A stretch of 64,000 nt of DNA from the NCBI GenBank assembly GCA_038087875.1, contig CM075988.1, positions 20,710,001 through 20,774,000 of the forward strand, in the 5' to 3' direction. Position 1 is the stretch's first letter, and each line of letters begins with the position of its first letter. Both the position numbers and the translations under genes were made by a program. The DNA comes from Malacoraja senta (lineage: Eukaryota). Positions 31,391-31,617 of this stretch are shown here, in pieces. A model generated the notes under the pieces. The model was given only the letters and a program-made list of their open reading frames with translations, was not told the DNA's origin and did not search any database.

Positions 31391-31617
31391 GAAGATAGAC
31401 ACAAAAAGCTGGAGTAACTCAGCGGGCCAGGCAGCATCTCTGGAGAGAAGGAATGGGTGACGTTTCGGGCCAAGACCCTTCTCAGCCTGAAGTAGGGTCT
31501 CGACCCGAAACATCACCCATTCCTTCTCTCCAGAGATGCTGCCTGTCCCGCTGAGTTGCCCCAGCTTTTTGTGTCTATCTTCGGTTTAAACCAGCATCTG
31601 CAGTTCCTTCCTACACA
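31391..31617. mobile_element. Palindromic PLE-tail-derived element with two back-to-back (mutated) hammerhead cores
   Basis: Centre gacgtttcgggccaagacccttctcag-c-ctgaagtagggtctcgacccgaaacatc; ~95-bp inverted arms. Confidence 0.87.

What the first reader, a model, noticed from the sequence alone, without database searches (positions are those of the whole stretch)
31391..31617. Family of small self-complementary retroposons with hammerhead-ribozyme cores on both strands
Seen: many ~120-230 bp elements made of two inverted copies (or one arm) of the Penelope 3' tail, at ~6695-6865, 7761-7973, 13178-13381, 23060-23260, 26044-26162, 30101-30283, 31391-31617, ~36325-36520, 58903-59103 and 62012-62156. 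The copies converge on a centre like GACGTTTC-GGGTCGAGACCC-TTCTTCAG-a-CTGAAGAA-GGGTCTCGACCC-GAAACGTC, i.e. two divergent hammerhead cores, one per strand; both are mutated in this particular copy. Several copies have variable-sequence ~9-12 bp target duplications and interrupt SINEs or CR1 tails, arguing for RNA-mediated insertion rather than MITE cut-and-paste. Known: Penelope-like elements carry minimal type I hammerheads and can form inverted pLTR structures; retrozymes are non-autonomous hammerhead retroelements. Inference: a non-coding, rod-folding, potentially ambisense ribozyme retroposon (viroid-like architecture) mobilised by the PLE RT/GIY-YIG. I do not know whether it has been described in elasmobranchs.
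Basis: partly seen in the sequence, partly recalled or inferred. Interest (0 to 1): 0.8.

Follow-up and report, generated by a model that had tools for sequence, protein, structure and literature searches.

The report
Mirror-image stumps of a Penelope retrotransposon
The small palindromes are real and very common, but they are the shortest leftovers of an ordinary Penelope-type jumping gene that lands as two back-to-back copies of its own end, likely built anew at each landing and predicted not to cut themselves as RNA, rather than a new viroid-like element.

Summary
The palindromes are real: 89 head-to-head pairs in about 1.06 Mb, roughly 150,000 genome-wide. They are not a family of their own. 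Each arm is the hammerhead-bearing pLTR end of coding Penelope-like elements (RT plus GIY-YIG). The same signature occurs at every size: one arm with a 35-nt tail, one without, and a variable TSD. It holds in 15 of 15 long inversions of a young coding family (0.85-8.1 kb). Junctions vary, they pile up at each subfamily's own small palindromes, and the centre has no fixed polarity (11:11, 15:9). No arm-specific mutation was found. None of 89 pairs keeps two intact cores, and the rod is predicted to beat a hammerhead fold by 22-58 kcal/mol. This architecture is published for other PLEs, and this scan reached the same reading on two other genomes. One exception: a single palindrome was captured by a Harbinger-type MITE and copied at least 1,026 times, likely as DNA cargo. 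Possibly new: tail and short ends are tightly coupled, and 5' ends pile up at the hammerhead's edge. This suggests paired priming from both DNA ends and run-off at the RNA start.

The parts
31391..31488 (-). Short arm: 5'-truncated PLE pLTR end without the tail
   Evidence: profile columns 3-101
31483..31582 (+). Long arm, the part mirrored by the short arm
31583..31617 (+). 35-nt PLE tail, present on one arm only
   Evidence: self-match ends at query 192 of 227; tail concept from PMC8557442 and PMC11167929
31487..31514 (+). Minimal type I hammerhead motif, core broken (A9 changed)
   Evidence: sequence; descriptor fails
31459..31485 (-). Minimal hammerhead motif of the short arm, one base missing from the core
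   Evidence: sequence
31379..31384 (+). Possible decayed TSD, left copy (6 bp, repeated at 31617-31622); within chance range
6702..6869 (.). Head-to-head pair
7760..7979 (.). Head-to-head pair; the only listed locus with an intact core (+ strand); 10-bp repeat with 1 mismatch
13177..13386 (.). Head-to-head pair, 7-bp repeat
23066..23267 (.). Head-to-head pair joined within hammerhead stem II; 12-bp TSD with 1 mismatch; interrupts another repeat
26044..26151 (-). Single tailed arm
30101..30290 (.). Head-to-head pair, 10-bp exact TSD, interrupts another repeat
36326..36520 (.). Pair whose arms come from different subfamilies, no TSD; probably nested insertions
58904..59104 (.). Head-to-head pair, older subfamily
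61707..61811 (.).
62012..62155 (.). Head-to-head pair; one arm lacks the hammerhead
5241..5680 (-). Parent-type fragment: end of GIY-YIG coding region, pyrimidine-rich 3' UTR, hammerhead, same 3' end
16264..16395 (+). Tailed arm 91% identical to the query arm, with GIY-YIG coding sequence about 240 nt upstream

Best explanation
Each palindrome is two truncated copies of the hammerhead-bearing end of a Penelope-like retrotransposon set head to head between a target-site duplication, likely made in one insertion event by priming reverse transcription from both broken DNA ends and likely unable to move again as RNA. Shown: arm origin, head-to-head bias, one tailed plus one short arm, variable TSD, variable junctions with hot spots, and the same pattern in coding copies up to 8 kb. 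Inferred: the enzyme nicks both strands about 14-16 bp apart. One end primes at the distal RT start site (tail) and the other at the proximal site 35 nt in, on the same RNA or RNAs from the same source. Both cDNAs often stop at the hammerhead's 5' edge, possibly the RNA's 5' end. They are then joined through small self-complementary words in the hammerhead, or by end joining. The 'double hammerhead' is a by-product of where the cDNAs stop. One such product was later amplified inside a Harbinger-type MITE.
For: Parent: 27 of 170 arms have the GIY-YIG coding end within 400 nt upstream, some arms 88-93% identical to the query arm. An 848-aa open frame with RVT_1 (E 4e-6) and GIY-YIG (E 9e-4) ends in a related arm, 82% identical. 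Continuum: 15 of 15 long inversions (0.85-8.1 kb) have one tailed and one short end and a 14-18 bp flanking repeat. Orientation within 100 bp: 89 head-to-head, 8 tail-to-tail, 19 tandem; no such excess at larger distances. Coupling: 52 short+tail, 5 short+short, 3 tail+tail against about 30/17/13 expected, p 9e-8. No master copy: no arm-specific column among 105 (smallest p 0.01), and arms match each other at 10 of 12 polymorphic columns across subfamilies. In a young set 25 variants lie on both arms against a permutation mean of 6.5, maximum 17. Hot spots sit on each subfamily's own palindromes (981 and 820 exact genome hits). The tail lies left:right 11:11 and 9:15 relative to the central base. 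Either arm may reach further 5' (14 against 17). Literature: head-to-head inverted pLTR, tail, 8-10 bp TSD and junction palindromes (PMC3846280); two RT start sites, both strands cut and extended, hammerhead cleavage not needed in vitro (PMC11167929).
Against: No biochemical or RNA data on this element. The long inversions show no excess of microhomology: 7 of 21 junctions overlap by at least 1 nt against about 39% expected, and 9 of the 23 rows printed carry inserted bases. Six of 21 long junctions are near-symmetric, which also fits fold-back self-priming. Arm concordance fits copying of the first cDNA as well as it fits two primings. Junction codes come from local profile alignments that are fuzzy by a few nt, so 83 of 89 overstates exact diversity. 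The long inversions were chosen from divergent hit pairs and are not a random sample. 29 of 89 pairs have a decayed or unclassifiable end. Both Pfam hits are under their curated cut-offs.
Confidence: 0.85

Rival explanations
1. Same class of product, but made by fold-back: one cDNA hairpins on a small palindrome, copies itself and is joined to the other DNA end (the self-priming idea in PMC3846280).
For: Symmetric hot spots on palindromic words; 6 of 21 long junctions within 13 nt of symmetry, three at one palindromic site; variants shared by both arms.
Against: It predicts a fixed relation between the tail arm, the central base and the longer 5' reach. Observed 11:11, 9:15 and 14:17. It gives no reason why the second arm stops at the known second RT start site.
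Confidence: 0.25
2. One reading: a non-autonomous, rod-folding, ambisense hammerhead retroposon that copies itself through RNA with PLE enzymes, at least for a subset of copies.
For: Very stable rods; one recurrent symmetric junction with 981 exact hits; variable TSDs.
Against: That junction occurs in several subfamilies with both polarities, and 6 of 30 such loci are MITE cargo. Both cores are intact in 0 of 89 pairs. At the symmetric junction the second hammerhead has no helix I pair, and hammerhead-compatible folds lie 22-58 kcal/mol above the rod. The motifs point apart, so they cannot release a unit-length monomer as tandem retrozymes do.
Confidence: 0.05
3. The palindromes are MITEs moved by a DNA transposase.
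For: True for one subfamily as cargo: 562-672 bp carriers with terminal inverted repeats and an identical 3-bp TSD in 17 of 20; at least 1,026 exact junction hits.
Against: Only 1 of 79 pairs in the sampled stretches lies in this carrier. The rest have asymmetric ends, 9-19 bp TSDs and PLE-derived arms.
Confidence: 0.02

Closest known systems
Insertion units of EN+ Penelope-like elements with an inverted 5'-truncated copy and a 30-40 bp tail (Arkhipova et al. 2013, PMC3846280; Craig et al. 2021, PMC8557442; Schostak et al. 2008, PMC2377424; passages read)
   Same: Head-to-head inversion, tail on one side, variable TSD, palindromes at the junction, C-terminal GIY-YIG; the parent's CX4CXXC linker is of the Neptune/Nematis type.
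   Different: Here both halves are often cut down to about 100-135 nt, at very high copy number. The statistics on end coupling and the 5' pile-up were not in the passages I read.
Minimal hammerheads of metazoan PLEs (Cervera and de la Pena 2014, PMC4209133; abstract, results and discussion read)
   Same: Extra base after A9, G10.1-C11.1 pair, palindromic 15.2-16.2, no helix III. That paper already notes pairs of motifs 100-700 bp apart on opposite strands in Schistosoma and relates most motifs to truncated PLEs.
   Different: Helix I has only 2 bp and helix II 4 bp here. Activity is untested.
PAc (Poseidon of Anolis) in vitro (Frangieh et al. 2024, PMC11167929; abstract and main text read)
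   Same: Two RT start sites define the tail; both strands are nicked and extended; hammerhead cleavage is dispensable.
   Different: A different clade. That work does not show joining of two cDNAs.
Non-LTR retrozymes (PMC7229834, passages; bioRxiv 10.64898/2026.07.22.740005, abstract, introduction, part of methods and passages)
   Same: Non-coding, PLE-related, type I hammerhead.
   Different: Retrozymes are head-to-tail tandem units with at least two intact same-strand motifs that release circular RNA. These are head-to-head, mostly with broken cores.
PIF/Harbinger MITEs (family features recalled, not from a call)
   Same: The carrier has terminal inverted repeats and a 3-bp TTA/TAA TSD.
   Different: It carries a captured, tail-less PLE palindrome. 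Its transposase partner was not identified.

Membership tests
EN+ PLE insertion unit | Arms derive from the pLTR of an RT + C-terminal GIY-YIG element | tested here: met
EN+ PLE insertion unit | Inverted 5'-truncated copy, head to head | tested here: met
   89 against 8 and 19
EN+ PLE insertion unit | 30-40 bp tail at one end | tested here: met
   52 of 60 classifiable pairs; 15 of 15 long inversions
EN+ PLE insertion unit | Variable-length TSD | tested here: met
   25 of 51 against 3 of 510; 13-19 bp in 19 of 24 young copies
Neptune/Nematis-type PLE | CX2-5CxxC linker before GIY-YIG | tested here: met
   CX4CXXC visible in the ORF; definition from PMC8557442
Neptune/Nematis-type PLE | Placement on an RT tree | not tested
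   no tree built
Minimal type I hammerhead | Core boxes, helix II, NUH triplet in the parent | tested here: met
   helix II pairs kept in 84-87% of arms. Rfam models do not detect it
Minimal type I hammerhead | Self-cleavage | not testable with these tools
   needs an assay
Non-LTR retrozyme | Head-to-tail tandem units with two intact same-strand hammerheads | tested here: not met
Non-LTR retrozyme | Expressed linear or circular monomer RNA | not testable with these tools
   no run on record as RNA was listed
Self-propagating palindromic retroposon | Fixed junction, fixed polarity, arm-specific shared mutations | tested here: not met
Ambisense viroid-like RNA | Foldable ribozyme in each polarity | tested here: not met
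   0 of 89 pairs with two intact cores; no helix I on one strand at the symmetric junction (prediction only)
PIF/Harbinger MITE (carrier only) | Terminal inverted repeats and 3-bp TWA TSD | tested here: met
   17 of 20 identical 3-bp TSDs, 15 of them TTA or TAA
PIF/Harbinger MITE (carrier only) | Transposase element with the same termini | tested here: inconclusive
   150 DDE_Tnp_4 matches scored in the genome; the terminal word lay near 1 of 30 against 36 of 300 background chunks; loci reached only 1.5 kb

The most novel reading that the evidence does not exclude
This genome is a natural mass record of the unsolved PLE integration step. An inverted insertion is a coupled twin-priming event in which one DNA end uses the distal RT start site and the other the proximal one. 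The flood of 100-230 bp stumps would be complete run-off copies of the first 100 or 135 nt of an RNA that starts at an initiator-like word just before the hammerhead core, not random truncations. The hammerhead's own small palindromes would then act as the joints.
Probability: 0.4. Interest if true: 0.55.

Novelty: new member of a known kind. Interest (0 to 1): 0.3.

Why it matters
As a class it is ordinary: repeat libraries should file these as truncated PLE insertions, not as MITEs or retrozymes, and genome-wide hammerhead counts in such genomes mostly count dead copies. Its value is mechanistic. How PLEs make inverted and tailed structures is still described as undefined (PMC8557442). A young family with open frames of about 800 aa and thousands of clean products gives sharp predictions for the existing in vitro system: coupled use of the two start sites, unfixed polarity of the centre, and an RNA 5' end at the hammerhead edge. 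About 150,000 near-perfect hairpins, some in introns as here, may also be a source of double-stranded RNA (untested).

Tried and rejected
Rfam: 0 hits at gathering in the window; at E up to 10 only unrelated hairpin families on four loci and on the tandem array. RNA evidence: no RNA holder listed. Four coded runs held contigs only and gave no start or end signal; this says nothing on expression. Hammerhead cleavage as the 5' end of insertions: no peak of arm starts at the cleavage site, and none of the 13 resolvable 5' ends among 21 long copies falls on it. Arm-specific variants suggested by the query-biased top 30 hits vanished in the position-chosen sample. Two-RNA chimeras: 8 of 62 pairs have arms less alike than the median, and the discordant one with a TSD test (window 36326) had none, so nesting is the simpler reading. 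General microhomology at long junctions: no excess. Spliced or captured exons upstream of single arms: no shared upstream sequence among 61; in 10 of the 16 copies with a flanking repeat, out of 49 examined, it abuts the hammerhead edge. A splice-acceptor or polymerase-stall explanation of that edge is not excluded. MITE transposase partner not found. Literature searches returned no paper describing these palindromes in sharks or rays, or a hammerhead-bearing Harbinger MITE. Subscription journals, Repbase and Dfam were not searchable, and no supplements were read.

Full report
Observation. The locus is a 92-nt inverted repeat (31391-31482 / 31491-31582, 92% complementary) with 35 extra nt on the right. 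Both strands fold as rods. A profile of natural copies finds 43 arms in the window and 430 in 998 kb of other stretches (100 stretches of 10 kb: 96 at regular positions, 4 beside the window), and none in reversed controls. Neighbouring arms under 100 bp apart are head-to-head 89 times, tail-to-tail 8 times and tandem 19 times; at larger distances there is no head-to-head excess. This extrapolates to about 154,000 pairs (bootstrap 113,000-192,000) and about 840,000 arms. Nine of the ten listed loci are pairs and one is a single arm. The genome is 1.94 Gb.

What the arms are. At window 5241-5680 (-) an arm follows the end of a GIY-YIG coding region and a pyrimidine-rich UTR. That peptide has 62,210 candidates in the genome, with open frames up to 848 aa. 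The 848-aa frame matches RVT_1 and GIY-YIG, both a little under Pfam's cut-offs, and carries a CX4CXXC linker of the Neptune/Nematis type. 27 of 170 arms tested have the GIY-YIG end within 400 nt upstream, including arms 88-93% identical to the query's. In tandem copies the arm runs on into the 5' part of the next element, so it is the pLTR end.

The same structure at every size. Divergent hit pairs turned out to be head-to-head inversions of the young coding family, about 99% identical, with different junctions. All 15 examined (0.85-8.1 kb) have one tailed end, one end about 35 nt shorter, and a 14-18 bp flanking repeat; these were selected, not random. Among the small pairs, 52 are short+tail, 5 short+short, 3 tail+tail and 29 unclassifiable. 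Single arms are 132 short and 119 tailed, so independent ends would give about 30 mixed of 60 (p 9e-8). TSD-like repeats score at least 8 in 25 of 51 pairs against 3 of 510 controls, 9-19 bp long. In 24 young palindromes, 19 have exact repeats of 13-19 bp.

No master copy. No column of 105 separates short from long arms after correction. The two arms of a copy share subfamily variants at 10 of 12 polymorphic columns. In the young set, 20 of 24 copies usable, 25 variants are on both arms and 35 on one, against a permutation mean of 6.5. Two hot spots were counted exactly: the symmetric junction at the 4-1-4 palindrome overlapping the core's 5' edge (981 hits), and a 7-1-7 palindrome across stem II that belongs to the young subfamilies (820 hits). 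Relative to the central base, the tail is left in 11 and right in 11 of the first 30 loci (6 are MITE-borne, 2 unclassified), and left in 9 and right in 15 of the second 24. A propagating element would fix this polarity.

The hammerheads. In the parent the motif has the core boxes, an extra base after A9, a 4-bp helix II, a palindromic 15.2-16.2 pair and a 2-bp helix I, like the minimal PLE motifs of PMC4209133. Rfam does not detect it. Both arms reach the CUGA box in 24 of 89 pairs. Both cores are intact in none, one in 12; 53 of 190 single arms that cover the core are intact. At the symmetric junction only one strand keeps helix I. Hammerhead-compatible folds are predicted 22-58 kcal/mol above the rod, against 7-15 in parent contexts. 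Cleavage was not tested.

Mechanism. Inferred from these counts and from PMC11167929 (two RT start sites bound the tail; both strands are cut and extended; hammerhead cleavage is not needed in vitro): both ends of a staggered break prime cDNAs, one from each start site, and the two like-polarity cDNAs are joined head to head. Either arm may reach further 5' (14, 17, and 13 equal), which favours two cDNAs over fold-back of one. Against: long junctions show no general microhomology excess (7 of 21 against about 39%), and 6 of 21 are near-symmetric, so fold-back stays open. 5' ends pile up at the core's edge: of 99 main-subfamily copies, 62 end within 5 nt of it, 14 within 6-11 nt and 23 further up. 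Flanking repeats abut that edge in 10 of 16 informative single arms out of 49. The word there resembles an initiator consensus (recalled), and PLEs have internal TATA-less promoters (PMC2377424, passages), so these may be run-off copies of the RNA's start. It also looks like a splice acceptor, as in D. virilis (PMC4209133), and a polymerase stall is not excluded.

The exception. Six of the 30 symmetric-junction loci share both flanks and private mutations and lack the tail. They lie in a 562-672 bp element with terminal inverted repeats; 20 of 30 loci had both termini, and 17 of those 20 have identical 3-bp TSDs, mostly TTA or TAA. 28 of 30 keep the same centre, some with point changes. The cargo boundary has 1,026 exact hits. 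This fits a PIF/Harbinger-type MITE (family features recalled) that captured one palindrome. Harbinger-type transposase genes are present, but the partner was not identified. It accounts for 1 of 79 sampled pairs.

Comparison and verdict. Head-to-head inverted pLTRs with a tail, 8-10 bp TSDs and junction palindromes are described in PMC3846280, the general pattern in PMC8557442, and opposite-strand hammerhead pairs in PMC4209133. Retrozymes are tandem and same-strand, which is not met here. My searches found no description for sharks or rays. Two earlier notes of this scan on other genomes give the same reading; I had formed mine before seeing them, and they are not independent evidence. Verdict: a new member of a known kind, interest 0.3.

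Noticed in passing
L172, L184, L189, L192, L194, L195, L201-L230; L144:9314-9554: Harbinger-type MITE (about 560-670 bp, 3-bp TSD) carrying one tail-less PLE palindrome; at least 1,026 copies. In L230 the palindrome is flipped relative to the MITE flanks, which suggests recombination between its arms.
   Followed up: partly
G000:C2688:131048-134446 (L231-L239): Head-to-tail array of a 408-bp unit (at least 9 units, 99% alike) made of the young PLE's 3' UTR, hammerhead, tail and first ~160 nt beyond it. It has the layout of a true non-LTR retrozyme. It lies on a small contig, so an assembly artefact is not excluded.
   Followed up: partly
L068:2088-2330 (-), L054:9415-9615 (+): Internally deleted PLE derivatives that join the ORF start to the 3' UTR and hammerhead; possible non-autonomous tandem-type elements.
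   Followed up: no
L091, L092, L094: Young, probably active PLE family of about 4 kb, copies 99% alike, open frames of 780-850 aa. L092 is an 8-kb head-to-head insertion that includes a partial tandem.
   Followed up: yes
window 35194-35507: MITE whose terminal repeats resemble those of the carrier; such termini occur in 36 of 300 random 3.5-kb chunks.
   Followed up: partly
window 62809-63240 (+): Exon with an ADAMTS cysteine-rich domain; 54931-55374 may hold another exon of the same gene, so nearby copies are probably intronic.
   Followed up: partly
window 28570-29445 (-): Tc1/mariner transposase open frame of 291 aa.
   Followed up: no
window 44598-45605 (-), 53718-54758 (-): Near-identical LINE RT ends (RVT_1 for the first), probably a young CR1-type family.
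   Followed up: no
window 51022-52797 (+): Gag/protease-like open frame of an LTR retrotransposon running into an assembly gap; label from motif recall, not tested.
   Followed up: no
window 37989-38128: One tail-to-tail arm pair, the rare orientation (8 of 116 close pairs).
   Followed up: no
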